Part shown: positions 18,653 to 64,000 of the stretch, piece after piece
How positions within the stretch are numbered: the stretch's first letter is position 1
Layout: each line of letters opens with the position of its first letter
Assembly: GCA_003559575.1 (NCBI GenBank)
Contig: PWKZ01000169.1
Coordinates: 197-64,196, forward strand
Reading direction: 5' to 3'
DNA length: 64,000 bases
Source of the DNA: Bradymonadales bacterium
Lineage (GTDB): Bacteria; Myxococcota_A; UBA9042; PWKZ01
Notes under the pieces: generated by a model
Database searches by the model: none
Told to the model about the DNA's origin: nothing
What the model saw: only the letters and a program-made list of their open reading frames with translations
Position numbers and translations under genes: made by a program

Positions 18653-19221
18653 TTGAGCTCCTCTTCACCGAAGCACTTGGCACCGAATCGCGACAACACG
18701 AACAGCGCGTCGCCGAGTCGGTTGACCAACGGAACGACCGACTCGCCGACAGTGTCGGACTCGGCCAGACGGATGATATCGCGCTCGGCTCGGCGACAGA
18801 CGGTACGGGCCTGATTGAGCGCGGCGCTCACCACGCCCCCGCCGGGGAGGACAAAACCGGTGAGCCGCGAAAGCTCGCCCTCTAGGCTATCGATCAAGCG
18901 CTCGAGCTGCTGAACATGCTCCGGCGCGATGGTGGCCCGGCCCTCGGTGGCACTGCCGGACGGAGTGGCAAGCTCGGCACCCAGCACGAAGAGCAGATCC
19001 TGAATTGCCAGGAGTTCACTGACGAGCCGCGCGATCGGCAAAACGCTCGCCTCCGCGCGTTCAGTGGCGAAGGCGCGCACAAGCCCGAGCGTGGCGTTGA
19101 GTTCATCCACCGCGCCGTACGCCTCGAGCCGCAGGCTGCTCTTTTCGACCCTTCGGCCCCCAATCAGAGTGGTTCGCCCGCGATCTCCGGCGCGTGTATA
19201 GATCCTGACAGAACCCGCCAT
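18643..19221 (-). CDS. ATP:cob(I)alamin adenosyltransferase, PduO type
   Basis: Motif VRIYTRAGDRGRTTL and the PduO-type helical bundle. Start probably the internal Met (MAGSVRIY). Confidence 0.8.
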   Translation of the reverse strand: MAGSVRIYTRAGDRGRTTLIGGRRVEKSSLRLEAYGAVDELNATLGLVRAFATERAEASVLPIARLVSELLAIQDLLFVLGAELATPSGSATEGRATIAPEHVQQLERLIDSLEGELSRLTGFVLPGGGVVSAALNQARTVCRRAERDIIRLAESDTVGESVVPLVNRLGDALFVLSRFGAKCFGEEELNWR

Positions 19222-19246
19222 AACGGTCTCCTGCGCCCGATTCGCG

Positions 19247-35525: not shown

Positions 35526-38500
35526 TTAGAAGTTGGTATCTGTCGCCACCCCGTCATGGCCATCCTCACCCGGCTCCCCGAGAGAGAACCCCCCGACGCC
35601 GCCCTGCCCGCCCGCGCCGGGCGCGAGGAAGTCGTTGGCCGCGCTCCAGACGGAGAGATCGAACACCGCCGGCGGCCACGCGAAGATGCCGTAGGCAGGC
35701 CCCCCGGCCCCGCCGGCGCCGCCGCCGCCGTGACCGCCTCGCCCGCCGTTACCACCACGCCCGCCCTGGAACGAAGGGTAGCTCGAAAACATCGGATCGC
35801 TTGGATCCAGGTGCCCGCCACCACCGCCGGCGCCGCCGAACCCGCCGACTCCACCCGCACCGCCGGTGCCGCCGAAGCCGCCATCACCGCCTGCGCCACC
35901 GACCCCACCCACGATCATGTTGTGCTCGATAATGGGCGGGCTCGTCTCGGCGCCGGAGAAGACGACGAACAGCCCAAACGCGCCGCCACCGCCTTTGCCG
36001 CCGGTGCCGGCCGAGCCGGGGCAGGCGCCGGCACCGCCGCCGCCGCCGCTTCCGCCGAGGTTGTGCCACCCGTACCCCTTGGAGTTACAGCTATTGTCCA
36101 CATAAGCGCCGGCGCCCGAGCCGCCTCCACCGCCTCCGCCGCCGAAAGTGCCGTTCGCACCGGACAGACCTCCCCCGGAGCGCCAGAGACCGGTCACGAG
36201 TCCCCCGAGCCCGCCGCTCTCGCCGCCGGTACCGTCGCCGCCCGCCGCGCCGTCGGTGCCGTTGGCGCCCTCGACCGGCCCATAGCTGTCATACCCGTCG
36301 CAGGAGAAGCGCTGGTGGTAGACATCCCAGCCGGCGGCGCCGCCGCCGGCCCCGCCCGCGGCGCCGGGCAGACCATTCTGTGACGCCACCGGCGCCACCG
36401 TGCGGTCGTTTGCAGAGTCCCAGGCCGGACAAACTCGCTCGCCGCCGGCGCCTCCCGAGGTCTCTGTGCCGTCGCAGGCGAACACCCCCGCGCTCCCGCC
36501 CGGCGAGTGATAGGCGACCGTGCACTCGTCTTGTCCCAGGCCATAGGCGGCGTGGATATCGAGGGCGTCCATGCCGCCCTCGCCCGCCACTCCATCGGCG
36601 CCATCAAAGCCGTTGGCGCCACGCAAGCCGCGACCGCCGGCGCCGGCGATGATCTGATTGTATGAGAGCTTCAGCGTCTCATCACAGCCGCGCACATAGA
36701 CGGCGTAGGAGCTAACCCCCGGGCGAGACTCCTCGTAGCCGAACACGCTGAAGCCGTCCAAAACCACGGAATCGCGAGGGCCGCCGTAAATGTCGATGGC
36801 GTTCACCGCCCCGGGCAGCTCTGGAGACGACTGGAGACCGAAAATGGCGGTCTCGAACCGTAATGGGTCGCGGCGCCTGAAGTCGGCGCTGTAGCCGCCA
36901 TAGACCTCGACTCCCGGTACCAAGACGACCGCTTCCTGATAGACCCCGGTCGCCACGTAGACATACGTCTTGCCTTCGTGTTCCGCGGCCGCGATCCCGG
37001 CCTGGATGGTCCGCAGCGGTTGCCCGAACACTCCCGCGGCATCGTCGTCGCCATGGCGCGCGACGAAGATCCCGTTGTCCTTCTCGCCGTCCATCCCATC
37101 GCAGTTCTCATCGATGCCGAGCGGATCGGGGCGATCAAACGGCGCCGGATCGCAACACTCACAGCCGGTGGTGGGATCGCCGTCGGCGTTGAAACAGTTC
37201 TCCACCTCCGCGCAGTCGATGGAGCAGACCGGCGGATCCGCCAGCGCATCGCACGCTCCGGGGCGCCCGTCGAAAGTCAGCAGCCGGCAGTTGTTGCCAC
37301 ACCCCCCGCAGTGCTCGTCGGTCACATATCGTCCGTCGACGGTGAAGGCGCCGTCGACGACTCCATCGCAGTTGTCATCCATGTAGTTGCAGACCTCGGG
37401 CGGCAGCTCACAGACCTCGGACCACCCCTCTTCCGTACACTCCTGCAAGCCATAGCAGACGCTGTCCTCGTAGTTGACTTCGCAGCCCCGCACGAGATCG
37501 GGGTTGCTCCCGTCGCAGTTGCAGGCATGGGTCACGGGGACACAGAAAGTCCCCTCGACCCCCGCGGCGCTCTCACAGACAAACCCGCTTGTGCAATCCA
37601 CGGGATCGGCGCAAGGGTTCACGCAGAAGTCGCCGTCGTCGAGAGTGACGCAGGCCGCGCCATCGAGGACACAAGTGTCGGCCGTGGTGCAGGGCTCGCA
37701 AGCCCCAAGCCCCGAAGGCACGCACCGAAACGGCGAGGCAGGGATGTAGCCCGCGGTGCACTCGGCCACCGCACACCGCGGCGCGGCATAGCTCTCGGAA
37801 TCACAGTACGCCGTAGAGTTGGGCACGGCGTCGCGACAGTCGATGCCGCAAGCGCCGCAGTGCTCCAGGTGGACGTACTGCGAATCCACCAGGAAGCCGT
37901 CGTCGGTGACGCCGTTGCACGTGTCGTCGAGCCCGTTGCATTGCTCCTCGGCCGCCGGCTCGCCCGGGACCGCGCTGCACACCAGCGCTCCGGCGGGATT
38001 GGCGGAATCGCAGACCAAGACCCCGTAGCGCGCGCAGGCCCCGATGCCCGCCACACACGGCTGCCCTTTGTCCTCCCACAGCGGCCCGTCGTCGGTGAGC
38101 CCGTTGCAACTATTGTCGCGTCCGTCGCAAACCTCGACCGAAGGCGCACCGGGCTCGACGTTGCACCGTGTCCCGCTGCCGTCCGGAGTACACTCGTAAA
38201 ACCCGAACCGCAGACACTCGCCCTGCCCTTCTGAGCATACATCGTACAGTTCGGGCCACAGCTCATCGGTGAGGCCGTTGCAGTTGTCGTCGATGTAATT
38301 GCAGCTCTCGGGCGCCGGCACCTGACCCAAGCAAATCCACCCGTCTTCACCGCCACAGCTCCACTGGCCGGGGCACTCGCCGTGCTCGTTGCTGATGGAA
38401 CACGCCTCGCTCGGCGGGACGACACCGTCGTCGGTCAACCCATTGCAATCGTCATCGCGACCATTGCACACCTCGGCCGCGGGCGTATCCGCGTCGCATG

Positions 38501-41489: not shown

Positions 41490-41559
41490 GGGAGACTCCT
41501 TACGGCCGATTTGCGTTGGCGGAGAGCACGGGAGCAGACCGAGCGACAAGCAGCCCTGA

Positions 41560-41757: not shown

Positions 41758-42393
41758 ATGTTGAACAGGCTCGGGCGCACATTTGTTTCGCTTTTGACTC
41801 TGCAAATAGTGGCGCCACGGTGGCGGCTGCCCTGTTTTGCGGCGCTCGGGGCTTTCGTCGGTCTCAGCTTGGTGGTCGCCCACATTTCGCGGGCCGCCTC
41901 CTACTTGACCGACTCCCCCGAGGCCTGCGTCAACTGTCACGTCATGACCAACGCTTATCTGACATGGCAGAGGAGCTCGCACGCCACGTTGACCACCTGC
42001 GGCGACTGCCACGTCCCCCAAGATAACATCCTGAGCCACTACCTCTACAAAGCCCGCGACGGCGCCTGGCACACGACTGCCTTCACCTTGCGCTTGGAGC
42101 CGCAAGTGCTGCGACTCTCCAAGAAGGCCATCCCGGTTATCGAGGCCAACTGCCGCCGCTGTCACGACCACGAGCTTCATCGCGTCTCCCTCGCGGCCCC
42201 CGATGAGCAGGGTCAACGATGCTGGGATTGCCACCGCGCCGTGCCGCACGGGAGTGTGCGGTCGCTCTCCACCTCGCCCGCGCTTATGCGCCCAGCGCTC
42301 CCCCCGTTGACGGGGCCGCTCAAGGGTCAAGGACAAACGATCGGCGGCCGGCCCGTCCGGCCCAGCGGTGGCGAACAAGGAGGACCACAATGA
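41758..42393 (+). CDS. nrfH: cytochrome c nitrite reductase small subunit, tetraheme NapC/NirT family
   Basis: N-terminal membrane anchor and four CXXCH motifs (CVNCH, CGDCH, CRRCH, CWDCH). Stop overlaps the nrfA start (ATGA). Confidence 0.85.
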   Translation: MLNRLGRTFVSLLTLQIVAPRWRLPCFAALGAFVGLSLVVAHISRAASYLTDSPEACVNCHVMTNAYLTWQRSSHATLTTCGDCHVPQDNILSHYLYKARDGAWHTTAFTLRLEPQVLRLSKKAIPVIEANCRRCHDHELHRVSLAAPDEQGQRCWDCHRAVPHGSVRSLSTSPALMRPALPPLTGPLKGQGQTIGGRPVRPSGGEQGGPQ

Positions 42394-43877
42394 GCCCGAC
42401 CCCCTCGACCGCGAAGCGCTCTCATCGCCCCTGGCAGGGCTTTGTAGTATTCGGGACGGCGATGCTGGCTGTCTTCCTGATGGGGCTTTTTTTCGCCTCC
42501 ATCATGGAGCGTCGGCGTGAAGCGCACCACATGGAGGTGCTCCAGCCGATTGCGGCGCTCGAATCCGACCCGGCCAAGTGGCGCGCCAACTATCCTCGCC
42601 AATACGACAGCTATCTTCGCACCAGAGAGACCGAGGCCGAGACCAAATACGGCGGCCCGGCTTTTCGCGACTACTTGGAGGAGACCCCCGCCAATGTGAT
42701 CCTTTTTGCCGGGATTGCGTTCTCGAGAGACTACAACCAGGCGCGCGGGCATTACTGGGCGCGCCGGGATACCCTCGACACCGGACGTCTGGCCCCCGAC
42801 AATCCCGGCACCTGCTGGACTTGCAAGAGTTCCGACGTCCCGCGGGTGATGGCCGAGCTGGGGGCAGGCCTCGTCGACGATCCCGAGAACGCGAGCTTTC
42901 GCGAGCGGCTGATGGCCGGCGCGGCGCCTTTCTATGCCACCAACTTTCATGAATTGACGCCCGAGATGAACCACACCATCGGCTGCCTGAACTGCCACGA
43001 TCCCGAGACGATGAGCCTCCGAATCACCCGCCCGGCGCTCGTCGAGGCGTTCGAGCGCCGCGAAATGGACATCGACGAGGTCTCTCATCAGGAGATGCGC
43101 TCCCTCGTTTGCGCCCAATGCCACGTCGAGTACTATTTCCGGGGCGAAAACGACCACCTCACCTTGCCGTGGGATCAGGGGACCACCGTCGAGGACATGG
43201 AGCGACACTTCGACGAGTACGAGTTCGCCGATTACACGCACGCCATCAGCGGCGCGCCGATAATCAAGATCCAGCACCCCGACTACGAACTATATCAGCG
43301 GGGCATCCACGCCTACCGCAGCGTCTCCTGCGCCGACTGCCACATGCCCTACAAGACGGAGGGCGGGGTCAAATACAGCGATCACCACCTCCAGAGCCCC
43401 CTCTTGAGCATCGACAACTCCTGCGCGGTCTGCCACCGCTGGAGCGAGACCGAGATCCGGGTTAGGGTGGAGTCGATTCAAGACAAGATCAAAGAGGGGC
43501 GCGAGCGCGCAGAGCGGGCGCTCGCGTTGGCCCACTTCGACGTGGCGGCGGCGGCCCAGGCGGGCGCCGACGACGCGGAGCTTGCGCGCGCGCGAGCGTT
43601 GTTACGCGGCTCGCAGGTCCGGTGGGACTTCGTCGCGGCCGCCAAGGGGATGGGGTTCCACGCCCCCCAAGAGGCCCAGCGGATTTTGACCGCCGCGGTG
43701 GAGTTGGCCCAGGAGGCACGCCTGGAGGCCGGCCGACTGCTCGCCGGCTACGGCTACACGGCGCCCGTCGCCTACCCCGCGTTTGAAACCAAGGAGCAGG
43801 CCCAAGCCCTCGTCCAACGCTTCACCAACGGCGATCCACCCAGTCTGTTGGTTGGCGGAACGGGCGCCCACCCCTGA
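42390..43877 (+). CDS. nrfA: cytochrome c552 nitrite reductase catalytic subunit (pentaheme, ammonia-forming)
   Basis: Diagnostic CXXCK active-site heme motif (CWTCKS) plus four CXXCH (CLNCH, CAQCH, CADCH, CAVCH). N-terminal signal anchor. AGGAGG RBS. Confidence 0.9.
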   Translation: MSPTPSTAKRSHRPWQGFVVFGTAMLAVFLMGLFFASIMERRREAHHMEVLQPIAALESDPAKWRANYPRQYDSYLRTRETEAETKYGGPAFRDYLEETPANVILFAGIAFSRDYNQARGHYWARRDTLDTGRLAPDNPGTCWTCKSSDVPRVMAELGAGLVDDPENASFRERLMAGAAPFYATNFHELTPEMNHTIGCLNCHDPETMSLRITRPALVEAFERREMDIDEVSHQEMRSLVCAQCHVEYYFRGENDHLTLPWDQGTTVEDMERHFDEYEFADYTHAISGAPIIKIQHPDYELYQRGIHAYRSVSCADCHMPYKTEGGVKYSDHHLQSPLLSIDNSCAVCHRWSETEIRVRVESIQDKIKEGRERAERALALAHFDVAAAAQAGADDAELARARALLRGSQVRWDFVAAAKGMGFHAPQEAQRILTAAVELAQEARLEAGRLLAGYGYTAPVAYPAFETKEQAQALVQRFTNGDPPSLLVGGTGAHP

Positions 43878-44054: not shown

Positions 44055-45422
44055 CTAACGGCTGAGGATCTCCATCAAGAGCTGCTGTTCCTTCTCCTGA
44101 TCGAGATCCGACGGAAGATCCACCTCGTGCGCGCTCTCCACAGCCGCGCTCAGCGCTGTCGAGCCCTCTAGGGTACCGAGCAAGATCCCACCAACCACCC
44201 GGCCCTCGTGAATCACGAGCTTGCGATACAATCCATTCTCGCGCTCGTGGGAGCAGAGCGCGCGCGAACCCTCGGGGGGAGCGGCCGCCCGGCCGGCCGA
44301 GAAGACCGGGATCCCGAGCACCTTCAAAAACGTCGCCGCGATCTGAGTCTCGAGGGTCAACGCGGCTCCGCCCGCGTTGGCCCCGGCGACGTCACCCATC
44401 GACATCGCGGTGGGCCATATGCCATAGAGGGCACCCCGATGCTCGGCCACATCACCGGCGGCGAAGATGTTTCGATCGCTCGTCCGCATGCCGTCGTCAA
44501 CCATGACACCAAGGTTGGTCTCGAGACCGGCCGCCTTGGCGAGCCCAAGATTGGGCCGGATCCCGGCCGCGACAACCACGAGATCCCCGCCGACCACGGC
44601 ACCACCGGCCAGATTGACCTCAAGCGGCCCCTCACCGCCTGAGTCGCCGAACCCCTCGACTCCAATCCCGGTGCGCACCTCGATCCCCTTGCGCGCAACC
44701 TCGGTCTCCAGTAGCGCGGCGGCGGCGGAGTCGAGTTGACGCGGCAGCAAGCGCGGCGCCATCTCCAGGACCGTCACACGGCACCCGGCGCGGGCCTTGA
44801 GCGCGTAGGCGGACTCGAGGCCCAACAGCCCGCCCCCCAAGACCACGACATGGGACAGCTCGGGCGCGAGGCTTATCAGGTGCTCGGCGTCGTCGAGGGT
44901 GCGCAGCACCACCACCTTCGGCTGGTCGATGCCGGGGATCGGGGGGCGGCCGGCCGCCGCGCCCGTGGTAATGACGAGCCGGTCATAAGGGAGCTCGCGC
45001 CCGGAGTCAGTGACGACGACTCGCTCCCGACGATCAATCCGGGCCACGCGCTGCCCCAGGACCAAATCAATGTCCTGTTCGGCGTAACGCGCCTCATCGA
45101 AGAGCGAGAGGTCATCGCGACTGATCTCGCCTGCCACATAGGGTGTCAGGCTCATCCTGCTGTAAAACGGGTGCGGCTCGTCAGTCAGAACCTTTATTTG
45201 GGACTTCCGCGTGGTGCGACGAAGCGCCAGCGCTGCGTGATGGCCTGCGACGCCATTGCCGATCACCACCACGGCACTCGGGGCTTCACCCGCCTGCACC
45301 GACAGATCCTCGTCCGGCAGGCGCTCAAAAAACTCGGGCCCGACCTCGCACACGGGACATTTGGCGGGCGGCTCGTCGCCCCGATGAACATAAGCACAGA
45401 TCCGACATCTCCAACGTTTCAC
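44055..45422 (-). CDS. rubredoxin-domain-fused FAD/NAD(P)H pyridine nucleotide-disulfide oxidoreductase (NorW / rubredoxin reductase-like)
   Basis: N-terminal rubredoxin fold CRICAY...CPVCEV. Two Rossmann GxGxxG motifs (VVVIGNGVAGHHAA, VVVLGGGLLGLESA). C-terminal dimerisation domain. Confidence 0.7.
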   Translation of the reverse strand: MKRWRCRICAYVHRGDEPPAKCPVCEVGPEFFERLPDEDLSVQAGEAPSAVVVIGNGVAGHHAALALRRTTRKSQIKVLTDEPHPFYSRMSLTPYVAGEISRDDLSLFDEARYAEQDIDLVLGQRVARIDRRERVVVTDSGRELPYDRLVITTGAAAGRPPIPGIDQPKVVVLRTLDDAEHLISLAPELSHVVVLGGGLLGLESAYALKARAGCRVTVLEMAPRLLPRQLDSAAAALLETEVARKGIEVRTGIGVEGFGDSGGEGPLEVNLAGGAVVGGDLVVVAAGIRPNLGLAKAAGLETNLGVMVDDGMRTSDRNIFAAGDVAEHRGALYGIWPTAMSMGDVAGANAGGAALTLETQIAATFLKVLGIPVFSAGRAAAPPEGSRALCSHERENGLYRKLVIHEGRVVGGILLGTLEGSTALSAAVESAHEVDLPSDLDQEKEQQLLMEILSR

Positions 45423-56716: not shown

Positions 56717-56743
56717 AAAAAAAAGTGGGCCTGAGAAGCCCAC
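56717..56743 (-). terminator. rho-independent terminator ending the radical SAM operon (minus strand)
   Basis: Minus strand reads GTGGGC TTCTCAG GCCCAC followed by TTTTTTTT. Lies 100 bp after the stop of the B12-radical SAM gene. Confidence 0.7.
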
Positions 56744-56844
56744 CCAAAAGATGCCGAAACCGACATCGCGCGCAACCTAGCACATCAAAATCACGAAAGC
56801 AAACCTGGCGCCGGGCTAAACTCATCTCACAATCCCAGGCAAAC

Positions 56845-58644
56845 TCATTGCCGCGGCCGCTGGGACCTCTTCCTCTCGACAAGTCTCTCCCCTCGACGCA
56901 GCGCCGCTTGCACCAGCGCCAGCAGGCGCCCTAGATCCGCGGGCGGCACCTCGATGCCCGGCAACGCCTGCCCCGTCAGCTCGTAGCGCTCGGTCACCCG
57001 CGCGTGGAGGCGACTTCGGGCCTCTCGCCTCGTGAGAGTAACACGCGCCTCACCACCATCTCGGTGGCTGAAGCGGGCGATCACGCCTTGCCCCTTGTCG
57101 CGCATTAGCCCAATCTTCTCGAGGGTCCAGCCCTCGATGGTCAAACCGATACTCCACGGGCGAAGTAGCCTCGCGACCCGCGCCGGCGCGAGCCACGGAT
57201 CGAGGCCATCCCGGGCACCCTCCATGAGCACTATCGCCTCGGCTGCCTTGAGCCGCTCGGGGTCCAAAGCGATCCGCCGCAACAGGTACGCTTTGGCGCG
57301 CGCCAGCGCGGAGGCGGGCCAGTCGCGGCTGCTTTGCAGGTAGGGGATCCCCCAGGGGTCGAATTGGAGCTCAAGCTCGGCGCGCCGGCGCCAGAGGAGC
57401 GAGCCCCGGTAGACTTGCAACAACGAGACGAGCACGGTCCCGACCACCGGCCGCTCCCCTGGTTCGGCGACGGTCCATTCTAGCAGTGTATCGAGGGTCT
57501 GCCGGAACCCCAACTCCGTGTCACCCGGCAGGCCCAGCACGATGCTCGCCACCGGTGGCCTGGTGCGTCGCCCGAGCGCCCACAGGCGCTCCTTCAATTC
57601 CTCCTGGTCGACCGGCGCCCGCTCCACCTCGACCATGGCGCGGGGCTCAAAGGTCTCGACCCCCAACAAGACCATCTGCGTGGGCACCCGCGCCAGTAGA
57701 TCCAGCTGCTCCTCATCCAGACAGTCATGGCGGAGATTGTAGGTGAAAAGCAGAGTTCGGCCGGGATCGACCTCGCGGAGAACCTCCACGAACGCGCGCA
57801 GAGCCTCCGTATCGTAATTGATCGCTGAATCGTTGAGGGTCGCGTGGCGGTGTCCGGCGCGGAGGGCCCACTCCAGATCACCGGCAATCCGGGCGGCCGA
57901 GAAATGCCGGAGCTGTTTATCGGCGTTCCAGGTGCAGTAGCCGCAGCCGTGCAAACAGCCGCGTGACAACTCCAACATCACCCCGTTCGGGGGCGGCGTG
58001 AGCACCCCCTGCTGGTAGGGGGAGGGGACCTCATCCAGCCGCTCAATGGCGACCGGCGGCGCCCCCCTCTCGATGCCGGAGCGAGCGCGGTAATAGATCC
58101 CCGGCACCTCGGCCAAAGCCCCCTCCGCGCGGGCGCTCAAGCGCGCCCGCAGCAACTCCCGAAAAGGGATCTCGCCTTCGCCGACAATGGCCACATCGGC
58201 CTCGGGCATCTCCCGCAACAGCCCTTCGGGATCCCCTTCGGTTCCGCGCCCCCCGAGCACCATCAAGGTGCCCGGCAGCTGCTCCCGCAAGGAGGACAGC
58301 GCGCGGCGCACCCCCGCCACGTTCCAGCAGTAGAGGGAAAAGCCGAGGATGTCCGGGCGCGCCGAGACGATGCGCGCGCGATCGCTATCGGAAAACCACA
58401 ACTCCTCGCGCGAGTCCTCGAGCTGCAACGGCTCGGCGACCACTTCGAGTTCGATCTCGTAATTATTCGCCAACTCAGGGAAGGACTCGGCGTAGGTTTT
58501 GAGGTAGGCGTTGGCCAGGCTATAGGGTTCGGGCGCCAGGGTGTCCACGAACCCGCCCTGGCTGCCGAACGGGCCGTCCATTCCCTCGGGGGTGATACTG
58601 CGGAAGCCCCCCACCAGGAGCACCCGCTGTCGCGCCCCGGTCAT
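56845..58644 (-). CDS. B12-binding-domain radical SAM protein
   Basis: N-terminal cobalamin-binding-like Rossmann region, then CxxxCxxC (SRGCLHGCGYCTWN). 599 aa. 4-bp overlap with the upstream plsC-like gene. Confidence 0.75.
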   Translation of the reverse strand: MTGARQRVLLVGGFRSITPEGMDGPFGSQGGFVDTLAPEPYSLANAYLKTYAESFPELANNYEIELEVVAEPLQLEDSREELWFSDSDRARIVSARPDILGFSLYCWNVAGVRRALSSLREQLPGTLMVLGGRGTEGDPEGLLREMPEADVAIVGEGEIPFRELLRARLSARAEGALAEVPGIYYRARSGIERGAPPVAIERLDEVPSPYQQGVLTPPPNGVMLELSRGCLHGCGYCTWNADKQLRHFSAARIAGDLEWALRAGHRHATLNDSAINYDTEALRAFVEVLREVDPGRTLLFTYNLRHDCLDEEQLDLLARVPTQMVLLGVETFEPRAMVEVERAPVDQEELKERLWALGRRTRPPVASIVLGLPGDTELGFRQTLDTLLEWTVAEPGERPVVGTVLVSLLQVYRGSLLWRRRAELELQFDPWGIPYLQSSRDWPASALARAKAYLLRRIALDPERLKAAEAIVLMEGARDGLDPWLAPARVARLLRPWSIGLTIEGWTLEKIGLMRDKGQGVIARFSHRDGGEARVTLTRREARSRLHARVTERYELTGQALPGIEVPPADLGRLLALVQAALRRGERLVERKRSQRPRQ

Positions 58645-59399
58645 CCCTCCCCTCCATGGGATACTCTCCCCTCGAGCGGGGTGGCGATGGCGGCACGCGT
58701 GCGAGCGATGAGCTCCGCTAGATCGCCCTCTCCCAGCCCGGTGGTCTCGATCGGAGGATGAACAAACGCATCCACCTTGCCCGGGAAAAGCTTCAGAGAT
58801 CGACCCGGCAACAGATCCCTCGTCCCCTTGATGGTCACCGGCAAGATCGGCAACCCAAGGTCGAGGGCGAAGCGAAACGCACCTTTTTTGAATGGCAGCA
58901 ACGCTCCGTCAGGAGAACGAGTGCCTTCCGGGAAGAAAACTATCGCAGTGCCGTCGCGGATTTTTTCGCGGGCTCTCTCGAGAGTGGCCAGAGCTTGTTC
59001 ACGATTCGACCGGTCGATATAGACGTGCCCGAGCTTACTGCATGCGAACCCGAACACAGGAATTTTGCGCAGCTCGGCCTTCATCACCCAGCGCAGGTCG
59101 AGCCCACTCCAGCCAATCAAGACGAAGATGTCCAGATGGCTCTGATGGTTGCTGACAACGACGTATGACTGCCCCGGCTTCATGTTCCCCTGATCGAAGA
59201 AGCGCACACGCATGGGGATTGCCGCCGCGTTGAGGCGTGACCAGATACGCCCGCAGATACCCGCCACGCGCGGGCCGGCGATCCAGGAAAGCACGATGCT
59301 CGTGATACCCAGCCCGAAAGTCGAGAGCCCCAGCAGTGGGAAGTAGACGACCCATTTGTATGGTTGGTAAAGGTTGAGCAGTGTTCGATTCTCTCGCAC
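58641..59399 (-). CDS. plsC: 1-acyl-sn-glycerol-3-phosphate acyltransferase-like (PlsC family)
   Basis: HXXXXD motif (VVSNHQSHLD) and FPEGTRS motif. N-terminal TM helix. Start set at GTG 59399 with GGAGGAAGG RBS. ORF track 58641..59552 overlaps the upstream gene and is probably too long. Confidence 0.75.
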   Translation of the reverse strand: MRENRTLLNLYQPYKWVVYFPLLGLSTFGLGITSIVLSWIAGPRVAGICGRIWSRLNAAAIPMRVRFFDQGNMKPGQSYVVVSNHQSHLDIFVLIGWSGLDLRWVMKAELRKIPVFGFACSKLGHVYIDRSNREQALATLERAREKIRDGTAIVFFPEGTRSPDGALLPFKKGAFRFALDLGLPILPVTIKGTRDLLPGRSLKLFPGKVDAFVHPPIETTGLGEGDLAELIARTRAAIATPLEGRVSHGGEG

Positions 59400-59439: not shown

Positions 59440-61818
59440 CTACAAGAGACCGCGACTTGCCAACATACCGTAGCAGGGATCATATTCGGGGCGGAAGAAC
59501 CCGCCACAGAGAATGTACTCGGTGCATTCGCGGCACACCGGGTGGCGCACACGGTGCGGCCTCGCGCGCTGGAGCGCCCAGGGTGGGAGCGGAGTCAACA
59601 CCCCGGGCAGATCGGGGAGCATGCACAACGGGACGCCCTGGACCGAGATCTCCGTCTGCAACTTTCGGCCGAGCAGCACCGCGCGCAACATCGCGTCACG
59701 CGCGTCTTCGAACCGCGCCACCGCCTCTCTTGCAAACGCGCGACTGTCCGGCTGCGGGTAAACGAGACGGATCGAGCGAATGCCGAGGCCCCGCGCAAAA
59801 CGCACGGTATCGACCAACAGGCTGAGATTACGGATCAGAACCGGGATGCGGGCTTCCAAATCGGTTATGCCGCTCTTGACCGCCTCGGCGACTCCGGCCA
59901 ACGTGCGCTCATGTGCCCCTTCGAGCGCGGCGATTTCGTCGTGAACCGGGGCCTGCGCCGCAAAGAGATCGATCACCAGGCGATCCACCAGTTGCTCATC
60001 GCGTCCCCCGAGAATGCGTCGCGCGACGGCGGGGCTAACGAGGCCGTGGGCATTGGTCAGGAGCGTCGTGCGCGAGAATCCCATCTCACGTACGCTCGCC
60101 AGTAGCCGGGGCAACAACGGGCTCAACGTGGGCTCGCCGCCCCCGATGAACACCTCGCGCGCCCCAAGAAACCGTGCTTGCTCCAGTTGCGCTGAGAGTT
60201 CAGCGAACCGCGGCGCCTCACCACCGCGGTCAAAGCCCTCGCGCGCCGCCTGCCGGCGCATGCCATCATCGCCCTCGGTCGGGTCCGGGAGACAATGACA
60301 CGCGAGGCAGCGCGCCGTGCACCGGCGCTCGATATCGAGAAAGACCATCGCTTGTGTGGCGGCGTGGAGGTGCTGCGCGTTGCGTTTCATCCGCGACACG
60401 TCGTCCGGATTGAACTCGGGGGTCTCGATGATACTTTGGATCTCCAGAGATTCGCCGGGGACTTCGTGGGGGGGAGTGGTGAAGTAGCCACTCTCCTCAC
60501 ACTCGCGAAACAGCGCGGTTCCCGGAAACGGGATGGCGTGTTGTAGCAATGGCCACGCACCGTATAGTTCGAACAGCCGCGTCGCAAACTCGAGCGTCTT
60601 GTTGATGCGCGCCTTCGTCTCGCCCGGCACGCCCATGATGTAGTGGACCTGGAGCGGCACCTGCTCCTCTTGACAGATTCGGGCTAGCTCGATCACTGTC
60701 CCGAGCTTCAGCCGCTTGTTTATCACCTTGCGCAGCAAATCAGGATCGCCGGACTCGGCCGAGACCGTTATCTTGGTGTTGCCGGCGGCCTTGATGGCGC
60801 GCACCGCGTCGCGATCGAGTTGATCGGCGCGAAAACCGTTGACCGCATCCCACGGCAAGCGCGCGCGCGCCATCCAGGCGACCAATTGACGAAAGCGCCC
60901 GGCGTTGACGTTGATGTTGTCGTCCAGGAACAGAAAACGATCGACCTCGTAGCGGTCCTTCAAGTCAGTGAGGACATTTTTCAAGTAATCCACCGAGTGG
61001 GCGCGCCAAGGGAGGTCGAGCACCTGGTTGGTGCAGAAATTACAGCGGTGAGGGCAGCCACGACTGGTCATGAGTGGAATCTGCCGCTCAACCACGTGGT
61101 ACTCATGCACCAAGCCGGCGCGGATCGCGTCGGCCTGGACCGAGAAGTAGTTGTCCATGTTGATGAGGTGGAACGCGGGCGGCGGCAAAGAGTCGATATT
61201 TTTTATGATTTCAGGCGGACTCGGATCGTAGGCGATGGCCTCGCCGCCGGGTCGGTGAGCGACCCGAGGAAGCCCTTCGACTCCCAGACCGGCCGCCAAC
61301 CGCGCGAGCAGCCGCGGGATGGTCGGCTCACCCTCCCCCACCACGATCCAGTCGGCCGAGGGCAGTGACGCCAACACCCGCCGCGGATCGTATGGAAAAT
61401 AGTTCATCCCACAGATGTGCATGTCGGCGAGCCCCAACGCTGCCTTGGGAAATGCCTCACGCAGCAGGGTGACCGTGGCCGGCACGAGGGTCTCCTGGAT
61501 CCGGTTGAGTTCGGAGAACATCGTCACGGCAACGCAGATGGCCAGCTCGTCACCGCCCGCGCCCAAGCCCATCCCGGCAACATTCTCGCCCACGGCGGCA
61601 ACCACACGCTCGGCCGGCACACCGACCTGCCGCATGCCGCTCTCCTCCGCCCTCATCTCGAGCTCGGAGCATAACGTGAAGGAGTCCACCACCCGAACCT
61701 GGTGGCCCAACTTCTCGAGCCAAGCGGCGTTTGCGAGCAAGCCGAGGGTGCTGAACATCGGATAGTGCGCGAAGATGAGCGGGAGGTGAATGGGGGGATT
61801 TACCAGGATGACGTTCAC
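59440..61818 (-). CDS. fusion protein: B12-binding radical SAM domain plus second radical SAM domain
   Basis: First Cys triad TSRGCPHRCNFC near residue 265. Second triad RRCTARCLAC near residue 497, followed by GGGEPTL and LLTNAHGL core motifs. 792 aa. Confidence 0.7.
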   Translation of the reverse strand: MNVILVNPPIHLPLIFAHYPMFSTLGLLANAAWLEKLGHQVRVVDSFTLCSELEMRAEESGMRQVGVPAERVVAAVGENVAGMGLGAGGDELAICVAVTMFSELNRIQETLVPATVTLLREAFPKAALGLADMHICGMNYFPYDPRRVLASLPSADWIVVGEGEPTIPRLLARLAAGLGVEGLPRVAHRPGGEAIAYDPSPPEIIKNIDSLPPPAFHLINMDNYFSVQADAIRAGLVHEYHVVERQIPLMTSRGCPHRCNFCTNQVLDLPWRAHSVDYLKNVLTDLKDRYEVDRFLFLDDNINVNAGRFRQLVAWMARARLPWDAVNGFRADQLDRDAVRAIKAAGNTKITVSAESGDPDLLRKVINKRLKLGTVIELARICQEEQVPLQVHYIMGVPGETKARINKTLEFATRLFELYGAWPLLQHAIPFPGTALFRECEESGYFTTPPHEVPGESLEIQSIIETPEFNPDDVSRMKRNAQHLHAATQAMVFLDIERRCTARCLACHCLPDPTEGDDGMRRQAAREGFDRGGEAPRFAELSAQLEQARFLGAREVFIGGGEPTLSPLLPRLLASVREMGFSRTTLLTNAHGLVSPAVARRILGGRDEQLVDRLVIDLFAAQAPVHDEIAALEGAHERTLAGVAEAVKSGITDLEARIPVLIRNLSLLVDTVRFARGLGIRSIRLVYPQPDSRAFAREAVARFEDARDAMLRAVLLGRKLQTEISVQGVPLCMLPDLPGVLTPLPPWALQRARPHRVRHPVCRECTEYILCGGFFRPEYDPCYGMLASRGLL

Positions 61819-63683
61819 CCTCTCTTCCTCCCCCGTGAGTCACGGCTCGCTTTTATCAACCATAGGTTAGATGTCGCGGGAGTGACGGGCCGGTGGTGGC
61901 GAACCTTGAACGGAAACCGCCCCATGAGATCCAACACCTGCTCACTCCGCCAGTTACGATAGTGCTCGTGCCCGAATGGCGCGTTCTCGTCGGCGAAGGC
62001 GACCTGCGCCGAGGTCCGTAGCATGGCAAACGGCGGCGAATCGCACAAATAGAGCGTCCCTCCGGAGCGTAACAATCGGGCGAACTGCGCGAAGGCCCGC
62101 TCGAGATCAAAGAAATGGTTGAATGAACGAAAAGCGAGGATGATGTCGAAGCTCTCGTCGGCGGCCTCGAACTCCTCGATCGTGCCCTCGTGCAACGTAC
62201 CGCCCACACCGGCGCCACGGAATCGCGCCAGCGCTCCGGCGTCGGGATCGAGTCCATGGTAATCAATTCGCGCTTCTCGGATGAGCGCCGCCAGCTCTTC
62301 GCGGTAGGGCTGCTCGCCGCAGCCCACATCGAGCACTCGCCCTCGGGCCCGCGAGACCTCCCTCCGCAGCCAGGTCTCCTCGGCAGTGAACGGAGGGTCG
62401 GGGTCCACCCGAACCGCCGTTGGGCACCGTTCTCTGTCAGGGCACGCGTGACACTCGGGGTGAAGACGGGCTCGACGCACCGCGGTCACGAAATCGTCTA
62501 GGGCGGCCCCCGCGCTCAGATCGAAATAGACCTGCTCCAGATCGTCCTTGACGACTCCAATCTCCCGATCCGTAAAGTCGTTGGCCGGGCAATGGTAGAG
62601 ATCGACCTCGCCATCACGGGCGAGCAGCAGGCGGCGGCAGAGAGGTGCCCCGCCGAGGTCGAGGCGCGTGGCCGAGCAACGACCGGCTCTCAACCGAAAG
62701 TTTTCGAGAGTGCGGTCGAACTCGTAGTTGAAGGAATTGGCGCGCACCGCCCTGGTCGGCCTGAGAGCGCGTTCGCCCTCGTGCTGAAGGAGCGGGGCCG
62801 GCGCGCCGGGGCAGGTGGCTTCGTGGACGCAGTCCTGGCAAGGGATTGGATGACTTCGCGCCGGATAATCGGGGTTATGCAACAGCCAGGCGTCCACTCG
62901 CTCGTCGGCAAACGCCGTTCCGGCGAGCGGTAGCCCATAGGCGGGAACACCGTAGCGCAGCCGCTCATCGCGAAGACTGGCATGCTCCTCGAGGAGGCAA
63001 GGCGCGAAACCCTCCCAGGCAACAGGCAATACGACGCCGGAGAGTGCCGCTGCGAGCCGGTCGGAGATCTCCGCCGCCGGTACCCAATCTTCGGCTTTGA
63101 CCCCCGTCAAAGGGGCGACAAAGCGGAGCCCAACGGCAGGAGAGCCCCCGAAATCGGCCAGAATCTCGCTGAGCGCCACTAGCTCCCCCAGGTTGGTGCC
63201 TGTCGGGCAGCACGCCACCTCGACAAACAGCTCTCGCGACCCCTCGCGAAGCAGACCGGCCAACCCGGTGGTGACCTGCTCAAAAGCCCCGGCGACTCCC
63301 ACCACCCGGTCATGGGTCGCTGCGACAGCGCCGTGGAGTCCCACTTGTAAATACCGCAACTCGGGCACGAGTAGGCGGCGGCGCACCCGTGGGTAGAAGA
63401 GCGCGCGGCCGTTGGTGACTACTCCGGCCGCGATCCCGACCTCCCTGCAGGCGCCGAGAAGTCGTGGCAAGTGGCGGTTCAGGGTCGGCTCGCCACCGAC
63501 GAAAACCGCCATCCCCGCCGCCGCGCCGCGCGCCAAAACCAGATCGCGCTCCACCTCGTGAAAATCGCGCTCGGGAGTGTTGAGCGAGTGAGTCGCCGGG
63601 TTGCGTGCGTTGTTTCCGCCCCCGATGCGAAGGACCGCCGCGGAATTCAAAATGCTGCTAAGCGCTCCGTGGCTCGCTATCAT
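61815..63683 (-). CDS. multidomain protein: radical-SAM-like domain lacking the Cys triad, Cys-motif middle region, C-terminal class I SAM methyltransferase
   Basis: GGEPTL and VTNGRAL radical SAM core motifs, but the position aligned to the paralog CTARCLAC reads GGGNNARNP. Middle CQDCVHEATCP and HPECHACPDRERCP. C-terminal MTase motif I VLDVGCGEQ. Start chosen at ATG 63683 with GAGGG RBS. ORF track runs to 63830 into the repeat. Confidence 0.6.
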   Translation of the reverse strand: MIASHGALSSILNSAAVLRIGGGNNARNPATHSLNTPERDFHEVERDLVLARGAAAGMAVFVGGEPTLNRHLPRLLGACREVGIAAGVVTNGRALFYPRVRRRLLVPELRYLQVGLHGAVAATHDRVVGVAGAFEQVTTGLAGLLREGSRELFVEVACCPTGTNLGELVALSEILADFGGSPAVGLRFVAPLTGVKAEDWVPAAEISDRLAAALSGVVLPVAWEGFAPCLLEEHASLRDERLRYGVPAYGLPLAGTAFADERVDAWLLHNPDYPARSHPIPCQDCVHEATCPGAPAPLLQHEGERALRPTRAVRANSFNYEFDRTLENFRLRAGRCSATRLDLGGAPLCRRLLLARDGEVDLYHCPANDFTDREIGVVKDDLEQVYFDLSAGAALDDFVTAVRRARLHPECHACPDRERCPTAVRVDPDPPFTAEETWLRREVSRARGRVLDVGCGEQPYREELAALIREARIDYHGLDPDAGALARFRGAGVGGTLHEGTIEEFEAADESFDIILAFRSFNHFFDLERAFAQFARLLRSGGTLYLCDSPPFAMLRTSAQVAFADENAPFGHEHYRNWRSEQVLDLMGRFPFKVRHHRPVTPATSNLWLIKASRDSRGRKRG

Positions 63684-63731: not shown

Positions 63732-63784
63732 GGGACGACGCTCAGAGTTAGCGACCGAGGATTGCCTGTCAAGGCCGGGGCTAC

Positions 63785-64000
63785 CCCCAATCCCCCGCCT
63801 CCACCGGCATTCGGCTGCCGATTCAGGCACATCTGCGGCGTCAGCTTCACCGATTTGGTGCTCCAGATAGCTCGGCTATCCCTCCGCCCGAAATCGGCTC
63901 GCCTCCTTGCAGCTACACCCGCTTCGACACCCTCGGTCCACGGACGCGGTGGATGATTGAGGCCAACCCTAATTCCCCACCTGCACCGGCATTCGCGCGT
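63785..64000. repeat. tandem, diverged copies of the intergenic repeat family (period ~181 bp, truncated by window end)
   Basis: ATTCAGGCACATCTGCGGCGTCAGCTTCACCGATTTGGTGCTC is a mutated version of the copy A core. CCAATCCCCCGCCTCCACCGGCATTCGG at 63785 recurs as CCTAATTCCCCACCTGCACCGGCATTCGCG at 63968. Includes the 33-bp block shared with 41609. Confidence 0.5.

What the first reader, a model, noticed from the sequence alone, without database searches (positions are those of the whole stretch)
59440..61818. Single polypeptide carrying two complete radical SAM Cys triads (B12-rSAM plus a second rSAM)
CPHRCNFC and CTARCLAC triads lie about 230 aa apart, each followed by its own core motifs. Tandem-fused radical SAM catalytic domains are uncommon and imply two sequential radical steps on one substrate.
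Basis: seen in the sequence. Interest (0 to 1): 0.55.

Follow-up and report, generated by a model that had tools for sequence, protein, structure and literature searches.

The report
Two radical SAM enzymes fused together
One 792-residue protein really does contain two complete radical SAM catalytic domains plus a third iron-sulfur site. It belongs to an unstudied myxobacterial and Elusimicrobia family that usually sits in gene clusters for modifying His-Gly-Ser repeat peptides, some of which also encode nitrogenase-like enzymes of unknown function.

Summary
ORF 59440-61818 (-) encodes 792 aa with CPHRCNFC at aa 255-262 and CTARCLAC at aa 500-507. They are 245 aa apart, not about 230.

Both triads sit at the canonical position of a full radical SAM core:
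- The N-half has a Rossmann-like domain plus a core, the class B architecture. Its closest solved relative is AprD4, which does not bind cobalamin.
- The C-half is an HxsC/BlsE-like core with its own GGEPT motif.
- Four further invariant Cys (C732, C762, C765, C771) suggest a third, auxiliary cluster.

The fusion is not an artefact. The identical protein occurs in three assemblies, and 75 full-length genomic homologues keep triad 1 (75/75), the auxiliary Cys (75/75) and usually triad 2 (67/75).

The family has no curated model and I found no literature on it. It is linked to an HxsC-like-methyltransferase fusion, to HxsB, HxsD and HxsC4-like genes, to (HGS)n HxsA4 precursors and, in some loci, to nitrogenase-like NflHDK. 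Relatives with three cores, or with a fused methyltransferase, exist.

The window shows only a reduced four-gene operon, with no precursor or Nfl genes in view. The "B12" label and the "two sequential steps on one substrate" idea remain untested inferences.

The parts
59440..61818 (-). Double radical SAM gene ('DBL'), 792 aa, GTG start. Its start overlaps the stop of the upstream gene by 4 nt.
61129..61818 (-). N-terminal Rossmann-like ('B12-binding-like') domain, about aa 1-230. Cobalamin binding is not established.
   Evidence: The Pfam B12-binding hit is sub-threshold. Foldseek matches to AprD4, TokK, TsrM, CysS and OxsB span about 500 columns.
60391..61086 (-). Radical SAM core 1, about aa 245-476.
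   Evidence: Pfam Radical_SAM at 251-412. phmmer hit to AprD4, E 1e-13.
61033..61056 (-). Triad 1, CPHRCNFC (C255, C259, C262).
   Evidence: Invariant in 75/75 homologues.
59644..60348 (-). Radical SAM core 2, HxsC/BlsE-like, about aa 491-725.
60298..60321 (-). Triad 2, CTARCLAC (C500, C504, C507).
   Evidence: Intact in 67/75 homologues. Aligned on the radical SAM cluster motif of BlsE and GDGT-MAS.
60127..60141 (-). GGEPT, the SAM-binding 'GGE' motif of core 2 (aa 560-564).
59506..59625 (-). C-terminal Cys set C732...C762-x2-C765-x5-C771, a candidate auxiliary [4Fe-4S] site of twitch/SPASM type.
   Evidence: Invariant in 30/30 and 75/75. The sequence was checked.
61815..63683 (-). Partner gene of 622 aa from M50 (the longest ORF runs to 63830). 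It combines an HxsC-like radical SAM fold whose CxxxCxxC has decayed (GGGNNARNPAT), conserved Cys clusters, and a class I SAM methyltransferase.
58641..59399 (-). PlsC-family (LPLAT) acyltransferase of 252 aa by the NCBI call (the longest ORF runs to 59552). It lies between DBL and the B12-rSAM gene.
   Evidence: The same arrangement occurs in the closest relative, L094.
56845..58644 (-). Class B radical SAM protein of 599 aa (CLHGCGYC) with a significant B12-binding domain. It is a recurrent partner of the family.
56723..56745 (-). Terminator-like hairpin followed by a T-run, between the B12-rSAM stop and rimP. It is the likely 3' end of the four-gene unit.

Best explanation
**Shown.** The gene encodes a genuine, evolutionarily conserved fusion of two different radical SAM enzymes.
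- Residues 1-476 have the class B architecture: a Rossmann-like domain followed by a radical SAM core carrying C255/C259/C262.
- A long helix (about 471-490) leads into residues 491-792.
- Residues 491-792 form an HxsC/BlsE-like radical SAM core with C500/C504/C507 and GGEPT, followed by a four-Cys C-terminal module (C732, C762, C765, C771).

**Inferred.**
- The protein binds three [4Fe-4S] clusters. Two bind SAM and one is auxiliary.
- Each core cleaves its own SAM to a 5'-deoxyadenosyl radical, so one polypeptide performs two different radical steps in one pathway.

**Inferred from the gene neighbourhoods of homologues.**
- That pathway is an expanded 'type 4' His-Xaa-Ser (Hxs) maturation system acting on a ribosomal repeat peptide, or on something derived from it. 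HxsA4 is a leader followed by 9-60 HGS units.
- The HxsC-like half engages the H-x-S unit, as HxsC-HxsD does in the canonical system.
- The class B-like half adds a second modification: methylation if it binds cobalamin, otherwise an AprD4-type redox-neutral step.
- It works together with the adjacent HxsC-like-methyltransferase fusion.

**In this window** only a reduced operon is visible: pseudo-rSAM-MTase, DBL, a PlsC-type acyltransferase and a B12-rSAM. The substrate gene is out of view.
For: **Architecture.**
- Two Pfam Radical_SAM stretches.
- The halves hit different NCBIfam groups. The N-half hits Sden_1168, HpnJ, ladderane-B12 and BchE. The C-half hits HxsC, NrdG2, ScmF, HxsC4, MoaA and PqqE.
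- The full-length AF2 model has pLDDT 92.6 and pTM 0.90.
- Foldseek assigns the N-half to AprD4, TokK, MgmA, TsrM, CysS and OxsB.
- The C-half profile hits BlsE (4e-28), GDGT-MAS (6e-19), SkfB, PqqE and MoaA, with the triad on the radical SAM motif.
- The C-half modelled alone matches PFL-AE, viperin, SkfB and BlsE.

**Conservation.**
- Triad 1 is intact in 75/75 homologues, triad 2 in 67/75, the auxiliary Cys in 75/75, and G560/G561/E562 in 71-75/75.
- 151 genomic relatives were found, almost all Myxococcota, including cultured Enhygromyxa, Nannocystis and Plesiocystis, plus Elusimicrobia.

**Pathway (87 non-redundant loci).**
- MTase fusion in at least 50 loci.
- HxsC4-like genes in 32 (454 bits to NF038332).
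- HxsB in 18 (567 bits, above the cutoff of 370).
- HxsD in 10.
- (HGS)n precursors in 16. These score as HxsA4 at 100-216 bits against a cutoff of 55.
- An aKG-HExxH peptide hydroxylase in 10.
- The 51%-identical relative L016 has HxsD, an HxsB-like gene and DBL contiguous.

**Rosetta-stone fusions.** Some relatives fuse a methyltransferase to DBL (P0200, P0193). Others carry three CxxxCxxC cores (P0144, P0147, P0219, P0246).

**Canonical system.** HxsC-HxsD modifies the SHRSS motif of HxsA (PMC13128918).
Against: - The 64-kb window contains no HxsA-like repeat gene and no HxsB, HxsD or Nfl gene. The contig breaks about 300 nt upstream of the operon.
- Within the subclade above 50% identity, only L016 carries Hxs genes. 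In that subclade the partner's triad is always lost, and triad 2 of DBL is lost in about half the members. The second radical step may therefore be dispensable there.
- The HxsC hit is far below the family cutoff (52 bits against 268).
- A PlsC-type acyltransferase inside the operon is not a known RiPP component.
- No biochemical data exist for any family member.
Confidence: 0.55

Rival explanations
1. The enzyme tailors a non-peptide cofactor, a tetrapyrrole or similar. It would act in the pathway proposed for Group VI nitrogenase-like (NflHDK) clusters that are rich in radical SAM genes.
For: - NflH/D/K genes lie within 10 kb of homologues in 12 of 87 loci. These include close relatives L004/L013, L012, L014 and L016, and an Elusimicrobia locus, L005.
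- Meheust et al. described exactly such clusters in Elusimicrobia and Myxococcales and proposed tetrapyrrole reduction. The 2026 review still lists the function as unknown.
- The N-half has weak similarity to BchE and BzaD.
Against: - Nfl genes accompany only a minority of loci and are absent from this window.
- 5 of the 12 Nfl-containing loci also carry HxsB, HxsD or HxsA4.
- No tetrapyrrole biosynthesis genes were seen next to DBL.
- The similarities to BchE and AhbD are generic and far below cutoffs.
Confidence: 0.15
2. The enzyme modifies a membrane lipid, for example by C-methylation or C-C coupling of acyl chains. The embedded PlsC-type acyltransferase would then install the modified chains.
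For: - A PlsC-family acyltransferase lies between DBL and the B12-rSAM gene in the window. It is translationally coupled to DBL in the closest relative, L094 (66% identity).
- The C-half profile hits the lipid-coupling enzyme GDGT-MAS at E 6e-19.
- The N-half hits HpnJ and the 'lipid biosynthesis B12-binding/radical SAM' model TIGR04072.
Against: - The acyltransferase occurs only in the window's genome and L094, that is, in two of the roughly 90 loci examined.
- No other lipid genes are in the operon.
- All lipid-family hits are far below cutoffs and no better than hits to peptide or cofactor radical SAM families.
- The family-wide partners are peptide-maturation genes.
Confidence: 0.12
3. Only the N-terminal core is catalytic. 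The C-terminal core would be a decaying or pseudo radical SAM domain kept for substrate recognition or electron transfer through its auxiliary cluster. In that case there are not two radical steps.
For: - Triad 2 is lost in 8 of 75 homologues (L012, L014, L015, L016, L020, L028, L029, L031), while the auxiliary Cys and the fold are kept in all of them.
- The adjacent partner's HxsC-like domain has lost its triad in this genome and in its subclade.
- Some genomes have lost both triads.
Against: - This protein keeps C500/C504/C507, GGEPT and N589 intact.
- 67 of 75 homologues keep the triad across identities of 25-66%, which indicates purifying selection.
Confidence: 0.2
4. The finding is an artefact. 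Either two genes were joined by a sequencing frameshift, or the second CxxxCxxC is only an auxiliary-cluster motif, as in MJ0619/GDGT-MAS.
For: - GDGT-MAS shows that a second CX3CX2C motif can be an auxiliary cluster in a small domain (PMC9433317).
- One homologue (L021) has an in-frame stop in the linker.
Against: - The identical ORF occurs in three assemblies.
- 75 full-length fused homologues were found in genomes, and about 35 further two-triad representatives at the 50% identity level.
- Triad 2 sits at the start of a complete core with its own GGE motif.
Confidence: 0.01

Closest known systems
FbiC (FO synthase, a CofG-CofH fusion)
   Same: A single polypeptide with two complete radical SAM domains. 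Each domain generates its own 5'-deoxyadenosyl radical for one pathway. It also exists as two separate genes in other organisms (PMC11917521).
   Different: The cores belong to unrelated subfamilies. FbiC has no Rossmann-like domain and no C-terminal auxiliary Cys module, and its substrates are small molecules (tyrosine plus a pyrimidine). No CofG or CofH model appeared among the 25 NCBIfam hits displayed, out of 34 found.
HxsC / HxsC4 radical SAM maturases of His-Xaa-Ser systems (TIGR03977, NF038332)
   Same: The C-terminal half is homologous to them (HxsC E 4e-14 and HxsC4 E 1e-9 for this protein; 104 bits to HxsC4 for the Nannocystis homologue). Homologues sit beside HxsB, HxsD, HxsC4-like genes and HxsA4 precursors.
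   Different: Scores are far below the family cutoffs. The domain is fused to a class B-like radical SAM enzyme. The window shows no HxsA, HxsB or HxsD. The canonical HXS system is a four-gene antiphage system, mostly in Gammaproteobacteria, with five HxS repeats and a peptidoglycan-binding domain (PMC13128918).
AprD4 and the cobalamin-dependent (class B) radical SAM enzymes TokK, TsrM, MgmA/Mmp10, CysS and OxsB
   Same: The N-terminal 476 residues share their two-domain fold, a Rossmann-like domain plus a radical SAM core. AprD4 is also the best sequence hit among solved structures.
   Different: Cobalamin binding is not supported by Pfam, and AprD4 itself binds none. None of these enzymes carries a second radical SAM core.
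MJ0619 / GDGT-MAS (tetraether lipid synthase)
   Same: It has two CX3CX2C motifs and three [4Fe-4S] clusters in one chain. The C-half profile matches its core at E 6e-19.
   Different: In GDGT-MAS the extra CX3CX2C motif ligates an auxiliary cluster in a small N-terminal domain. Here each motif heads a complete core with its own SAM-binding motifs.
Radical SAM suites next to Group VI nitrogenase-like NflHDK (Meheust et al. 2020)
   Same: Homologues of this protein are components of such clusters in Elusimicrobia and Myxococcota.
   Different: The fused enzyme, the HxsA4 precursors and HxsB/HxsD are not mentioned in that paper or in the 2026 review. The window itself has no Nfl genes.
BlsE (cytosylglucuronate decarboxylase)
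   Same: It is the best solved-structure sequence match for the C-half (E 4e-28), with the radical SAM motif and the GGEP motif aligned.
   Different: BlsE is a stand-alone small-molecule enzyme. The match covers only the core (profile positions 11-186).

Membership tests
Radical SAM superfamily, N-terminal core | A CxxxCxxC triad in the loop after strand beta-1 of a partial TIM barrel | tested here: met
   C255/C259/C262 are invariant in 75/75 homologues. Pfam Radical_SAM covers 251-412. The fold matches AprD4, TokK and TsrM.
Radical SAM superfamily, C-terminal core | A CxxxCxxC triad at the head of a second partial TIM barrel, with its own GGE SAM-binding motif | tested here: met
   C500/C504/C507 and GGEPT 560-564 align to the motifs of BlsE and GDGT-MAS. 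The stand-alone model matches PFL-AE, viperin and SkfB. The triad is intact in 67/75 homologues.
Radical SAM superfamily, both cores | Reductive cleavage of SAM at each cluster | not testable with these tools
   This needs anaerobic biochemistry with triad-specific variants.
Class B (cobalamin-dependent) radical SAM enzymes | An N-terminal Rossmann-type domain preceding the core | tested here: met
   Foldseek alignments of about 500-640 columns to TokK, TsrM, CysS and OxsB.
Class B (cobalamin-dependent) radical SAM enzymes | A recognisable B12-binding domain (PF02310 above its gathering score) | tested here: not met
   16.4 bits against a cutoff of 32.1. Most family members have no precomputed PF02310 hit.
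Class B (cobalamin-dependent) radical SAM enzymes | Bound cobalamin | not testable with these tools
   The closest solved relative, AprD4, does not bind cobalamin.
HxsC family (TIGR03977) / HxsC4 (NF038332) | Score at or above the curated cutoff | tested here: not met
   52.2 bits against 267.9, and 37.9 bits against 500.
His-Xaa-Ser (Hxs) system | Adjacent HxsA repeat precursor, HxsB and HxsD | tested here: not met
   None is present in the 64-kb window. The feature is met in 24 of 87 homologue loci, including the 51%-identical relative L016.
SPASM/twitch auxiliary-cluster radical SAM enzymes | Conserved C-terminal Cys residues ligating one or more auxiliary [4Fe-4S] clusters | tested here: inconclusive
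   Four invariant Cys are present (C732, C762-x2-C765-x5-C771). There is no Pfam SPASM hit, and cluster binding is untested.
FbiC / CofG-CofH | Homology of both cores to CofG and CofH | tested here: not met
   No such model appeared among the best 25 NCBIfam hits. 34 families hit in all, and the lowest 9 were not displayed.
Group VI NFL-associated radical SAM cluster | NflH, NflD or NflK encoded nearby | tested here: not met
   tblastn with three NflHDK sets finds nothing in the window. The feature is met in 12 of 87 homologue loci.

The most novel reading that the evidence does not exclude
The fused enzyme would be one module of an unrecognised 'assembly line' of chained radical SAM cores. 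Relatives carry two or three cores per polypeptide, or a fused methyltransferase. The line would rewrite every His-Gly-Ser unit of HxsA4-type repeat peptides. In part of the family the product would be handed to a Group VI nitrogenase-like reductase. The unknown substrate of Group VI NFL enzymes would then be a ribosomal peptide, or a peptide-derived cofactor or polymer, rather than a tetrapyrrole.
Probability: 0.2. Interest if true: 0.85.

Novelty: new variant of a known kind. Interest (0 to 1): 0.6.

Why it matters
Tandem radical SAM cores are rare. FbiC is the textbook case. The other much-cited candidate, MJ0619, turned out to have an auxiliary cluster instead of a second core.

This protein is a clean second architecture, a class B-like core fused to an HxsC-like core with a third cluster site. 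It has 151 genomic relatives, including culturable myxobacteria (Enhygromyxa, Nannocystis, Plesiocystis), so it is experimentally tractable.

The family also connects three things that have so far been treated separately:
- the His-Xaa-Ser maturation machinery, whose chemistry (+8 Da on SHRSS) is unresolved;
- very long (HGS)n precursors, curated only as 'HxsA4';
- the Group VI nitrogenase-like enzymes, whose substrate remains an open question.

The three-core and methyltransferase-fused relatives give Rosetta-stone evidence for which enzymes act together. That makes the pathway directly testable.

Tried and rejected
- **Frameshift or fusion artefact.** Rejected. The identical ORF occurs in three assemblies, and there are 75 fused genomic homologues.
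- **Second triad as an auxiliary SPASM/twitch cluster.** Rejected by the profile alignment and by the fold of the C-half alone.
- **Single-sequence phmmer of the C-half against PDB.** It found nothing. A family profile was needed.
- **Split orthologues.** Only L021 has an in-frame stop in the linker, and it also lacks triad 2. Stand-alone homologues of each half do exist as separate families: 480-560-aa N-half-like proteins and 300-340-aa HxsC4-like proteins.
- **HxS or HGS repeat ORFs, HxsB, HxsD, NflHDK and a beta-propeller gene in the window.** None was found.
- **PADLOC defence models.** Only weak generic radical SAM hits.
- **Public names for the proteins.** None is recorded.
- **An Rfam family in the repeated upstream region.** None was found.
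- **Complementary loss of the two HxsC-like triads, DBL-C against partner.** Not supported, because several genomes have lost both.
- **Distance between the two active sites.** It could not be measured because model coordinates are not exposed.
Full report
**1. The observation**

The window carries a 792-aa ORF at 59440-61818 on the minus strand. Its GC3 of 0.78 is typical of coding sequence here. CPHRCNFC is at residues 255-262 (nt 61033-61056) and CTARCLAC at residues 500-507 (nt 60298-60321). The triads are 245 residues apart, not about 230.

The protein has 17 cysteines. Random placement of 17 Cys gives one CxxxCxxC in 0.6% of trials and two in none of 20,000 trials.

The identical protein is called on contigs from three independent assemblies (NCBI GCA_007134265.1, ENA, Logan). 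About 70 database homologues of 722-812 aa cover the full length, down to 25% identity. The fusion is therefore not a sequencing artefact.

**2. Both triads head complete radical SAM cores**

- Pfam reports two Radical_SAM stretches.
- NCBIfam splits the protein in two. Residues 20-476 hit class B families (Sden_1168, HpnJ, the 'ladderane' B12-rSAM, BchE, AprD4). Residues 494-776 hit HxsC, NrdG2, ScmF, HxsC4, MoaA and PqqE. All hits are far below their family cutoffs.
- An AlphaFold2 model built on 30 homologues is confident: pLDDT 92.6, pTM 0.90. A long helix at about residues 471-490 joins the halves.
- Foldseek matches the N-half to AprD4 (E 4e-17), TokK, MgmA, TsrM, CysS and OxsB. AprD4 is also the best sequence match among solved structures.
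- A 19-sequence profile of the C-half hits BlsE (4e-28), GDGT-MAS (6e-19), SkfB, PqqE and MoaA. Its CxxxCxxC aligns on their radical SAM motif and its GGEPT on their GGE motif.
- The C-half modelled alone (pLDDT 91) matches PFL-AE, viperin, SkfB, BlsE, GDGT-MAS and SuiB.

This is the opposite of the MJ0619/GDGT-MAS case, where a second CX3CX2C motif proved to be an auxiliary cluster in a small domain. Here the auxiliary role falls to a separate, invariant Cys set: C732, C762, C765 and C771. The motif names and the twitch/SPASM concept come from my own knowledge of the radical SAM literature.

**3. Conservation**

A scan of one genome per species found 151 relatives. Almost all are Myxococcota (Polyangia, Nannocystaceae, Sandaracinaceae). 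They include cultured Enhygromyxa salina, Nannocystis punicea, Nannocystis sp. RBIL2 and Plesiocystis pacifica (two loci). A few are Elusimicrobia.

| Feature | Retained in 75 full-length genomic homologues |
|---|---|
| Triad 1 | 75 |
| Auxiliary Cys | 75 |
| G560 / G561 / E562 | 75 / 71 / 72 |
| Triad 2 | 67 |

The eight losses of triad 2 are L012, L014, L015, L016, L020, L028, L029 and L031. Most are in or near this protein's own subclade.

Only one locus is 'split'. L021 has an in-frame stop in the linker and also lacks triad 2.

An exhaustive HMMER search of 1.84 billion representatives gave 398 hits at E <= 1e-30. Among the best 150:
- about 35 further two-triad proteins of 680-999 aa;
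- many 480-560-aa stand-alone relatives of the N-half;
- longer fusions, described next.

P0144, P0147, P0219 and P0246 carry three CxxxCxxC cores. P0200 and P0193 carry a class I methyltransferase fused in front of the double core.

**4. Is the N-half a B12 enzyme?**

This is not established. The Pfam B12-binding hit is below threshold (16.4 bits against 32.1). Most relatives lack that hit. AprD4, the closest solved relative, is reported not to bind cobalamin despite its Rossmann-related domain (PMC12931638). The fold is that of class B enzymes. The cofactor is unknown.

**5. Context in the window**

On the minus strand the gene order is as follows.

| Coordinates | Product |
|---|---|
| 61815-63683 | 622-aa partner; its stop overlaps the DBL start by 4 nt |
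| 59440-61818 | DBL |
| 58641-59399 | PlsC-family acyltransferase |
| 56845-58644 | 599-aa class B radical SAM with a significant B12-binding domain |
| 56745-56723 | terminator-like hairpin |
| below 56743 | housekeeping rimP-nusA-ylxR-infB-rbfA-truB-pnp-dut block |

The partner is an HxsC-like radical SAM fold plus a class I methyltransferase. It is paralogous to the C-half of DBL (28% identity, E 6e-13). In this genome its CxxxCxxC has decayed to GGGNNARNPAT, whereas more distant relatives keep it.

The window ends about 300 nt upstream of the operon, inside a repeated intergenic element where three assemblies break. The rest of the window has no Hxs or Nfl genes.

**6. Context of homologues**

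In 87 non-redundant loci with flanks of 10 kb or less, my crude gene calls and clustering give the lower bounds below.

| Neighbouring gene | Loci | Supporting score |
|---|---|---|
| Methyltransferase fusion | at least 50 | |
| HxsC4-like small radical SAM | 32 | NF038332, 454 bits |
| HxsB | 18 | TIGR03978, 567 bits against cutoff 370 |
| HxsD | 10 | TIGR03976 above cutoff |
| aKG-HExxH peptide beta-hydroxylase | 10 | |
| Leader + (HGS)9-60 + W precursor | 16 | |
| Nitrogenase-like NflH/D/K | 12 | |

- The precursors score as NCBIfam 'HxsA4' at 100-216 bits against a cutoff of 55. Several contigs end inside that repeat.
- The Nfl proteins score below every curated NifH, CfbC or BchL cutoff.
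- Five Nfl loci also carry Hxs genes. In L090, NflHDK, an HxsC4-like gene, HxsD, an HxsB-like gene and HxsA4 are contiguous. In L016 (51% identical to this protein), HxsD, an HxsB-like gene, DBL, a B12-rSAM and NflK/D are contiguous.
- The closest relatives show MTf-DBL-acyltransferase (L094, 66%) and beta-propeller-MTf-DBL-B12-like rSAM (L093, 63%).

**7. Literature**

- Radical SAM-rich Nfl clusters in Elusimicrobia and Myxococcales were described by Meheust et al. They were assigned to a new Group VI with a proposed tetrapyrrole substrate.
- A 2026 review still lists the function as unknown.
- Neither text mentions Hxs genes, peptides or methyltransferases.
- The canonical four-gene HXS system was shown in 2026 to be an antiphage system. 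In it, HxsB/HxsC mature HxsA, and an HxsC-HxsD core is proposed to install a +8 Da modification on an SHRSS motif.
- Searches for HGS repeats, HxsA4, HxsC4 or multi-core radical SAM proteins returned nothing relevant.
- FbiC is the established precedent for two radical SAM domains in one protein.

**8. Interpretation**

Shown: this is a conserved polypeptide with two cores and probably three clusters.

Inferred:
- Both cores cleave SAM.
- The HxsC-like half recognises an H-x-S-type unit.
- The class B-like half performs a second step: methylation, or an AprD4-like transformation.
- The neighbouring methyltransferase fusion acts in the same pathway.

The fusions of DBL with a methyltransferase, or with a third core, are independent evidence that these activities work together.

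For this particular genome the assignment is weaker, for three reasons:
- No precursor or HxsB/D gene is in view.
- The subclade shows relaxed conservation of the HxsC-type triads.
- A lipid-type acyltransferase is embedded in the operon.

I therefore rate the architecture as near certain. I give the peptide-pathway assignment about even odds for this protein and higher odds for the family. The rivals are a tetrapyrrole or other cofactor pathway with Nfl, a lipid pathway, or a catalytically silent second core.

**9. Verdict**

The finding is real. It is a new architectural variant of a known kind of enzyme, in a family with no curated model and no literature that I could find. Its main value is as an entry point to an uncharacterised Hxs-type-4 / Group VI NFL biosynthetic system.

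Noticed in passing
window 61815-63683 (-): The upstream partner is a pseudo radical SAM. It has an HxsC-like fold with GGEPT and conserved Cys clusters, but its CxxxCxxC is replaced by GGGNNARNPAT. It is fused to a class I SAM methyltransferase. The triad is intact in 29 of 37 adjacent partner genes in other genomes and lost throughout this subclade.
   Followed up: yes
L090 4361-12009; L008 7696-22238; L016 8063-18081; L007; L019: HxsA4-type (HGS)n precursor genes, HxsB and HxsD lie in the same loci as Group VI-like nitrogenase paralogues NflHDK. This link is absent from the 2020 description and the 2026 review of these enzymes.
   Followed up: partly
L034 2-547, L037 3-353, L039 177-854, L040 5096-5836 and others: The precursors carry 9 to about 60 perfect His-Gly-Ser repeats ending in ...HGSW. 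Their leaders are either acidic and cytosolic-type or carry a twin-arginine or signal-like sequence. Several metagenomic contigs terminate inside the repeat.
   Followed up: partly
proteins P0144, P0147, P0219, P0246, P0200, P0193, P0049 (not in the window): Some relatives have three CxxxCxxC radical SAM cores in one chain. Others have a methyltransferase fused N-terminally to the double core. Two proteins of more than 2,000 aa in the same hit list have 4-5 such motifs.
   Followed up: partly
window 63779-63813 and 63961-63995; L002 1-330: A repeated intergenic element with spacing of about 182 nt lies upstream of the operon. A third copy lies further upstream in L002. Contigs from three assemblies end here. 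There is no Rfam match.
   Followed up: partly
window 58641-59399 (-): A PlsC/LPLAT-family acyltransferase with an N-terminal hydrophobic segment is embedded between two radical SAM genes. The same arrangement, with a 4-nt overlap, occurs in the closest relative L094 but nowhere else in the family.
   Followed up: partly
L021 8561-10903: This is the only 'split' homologue. It has an in-frame stop in the inter-domain linker (…NPDQVM*FKNNF…), and its C-terminal part has no triad.
   Followed up: yes
window 29586-35510 (-) and 35526-41549 (-): Two tandem genes of about 2,000 aa each lie in the most GC-rich part of the window. Their only Pfam signal is the MopE-like putative metal-binding motif.
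   Followed up: no
window 9845-11626 (+): A 593-aa protein with a bacterial tubulin-like domain (PF13809 Tubulin_2) lies just upstream of gyrB/gyrA-type topoisomerase genes.
   Followed up: no
window 42219-43877 (+) and 44055-45422 (-): An NrfA-type cytochrome c552 nitrite reductase, and a rubredoxin-fused pyridine-nucleotide-disulfide oxidoreductase with a C-terminal rubredoxin-reductase domain.
   Followed up: no
window 18643-19278 (-) and 2076-3728 (-): A PduO-type cobalamin adenosyltransferase and a methylmalonyl-CoA mutase. The organism therefore uses cobalamin, which is relevant to the class B radical SAM genes.
   Followed up: no
window 56723-56745 (-): A 10-bp hairpin followed by a T-run lies between the B12-rSAM stop and rimP. 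It suggests that the four-gene unit is transcribed separately from the rimP-nusA-infB operon.
   Followed up: no
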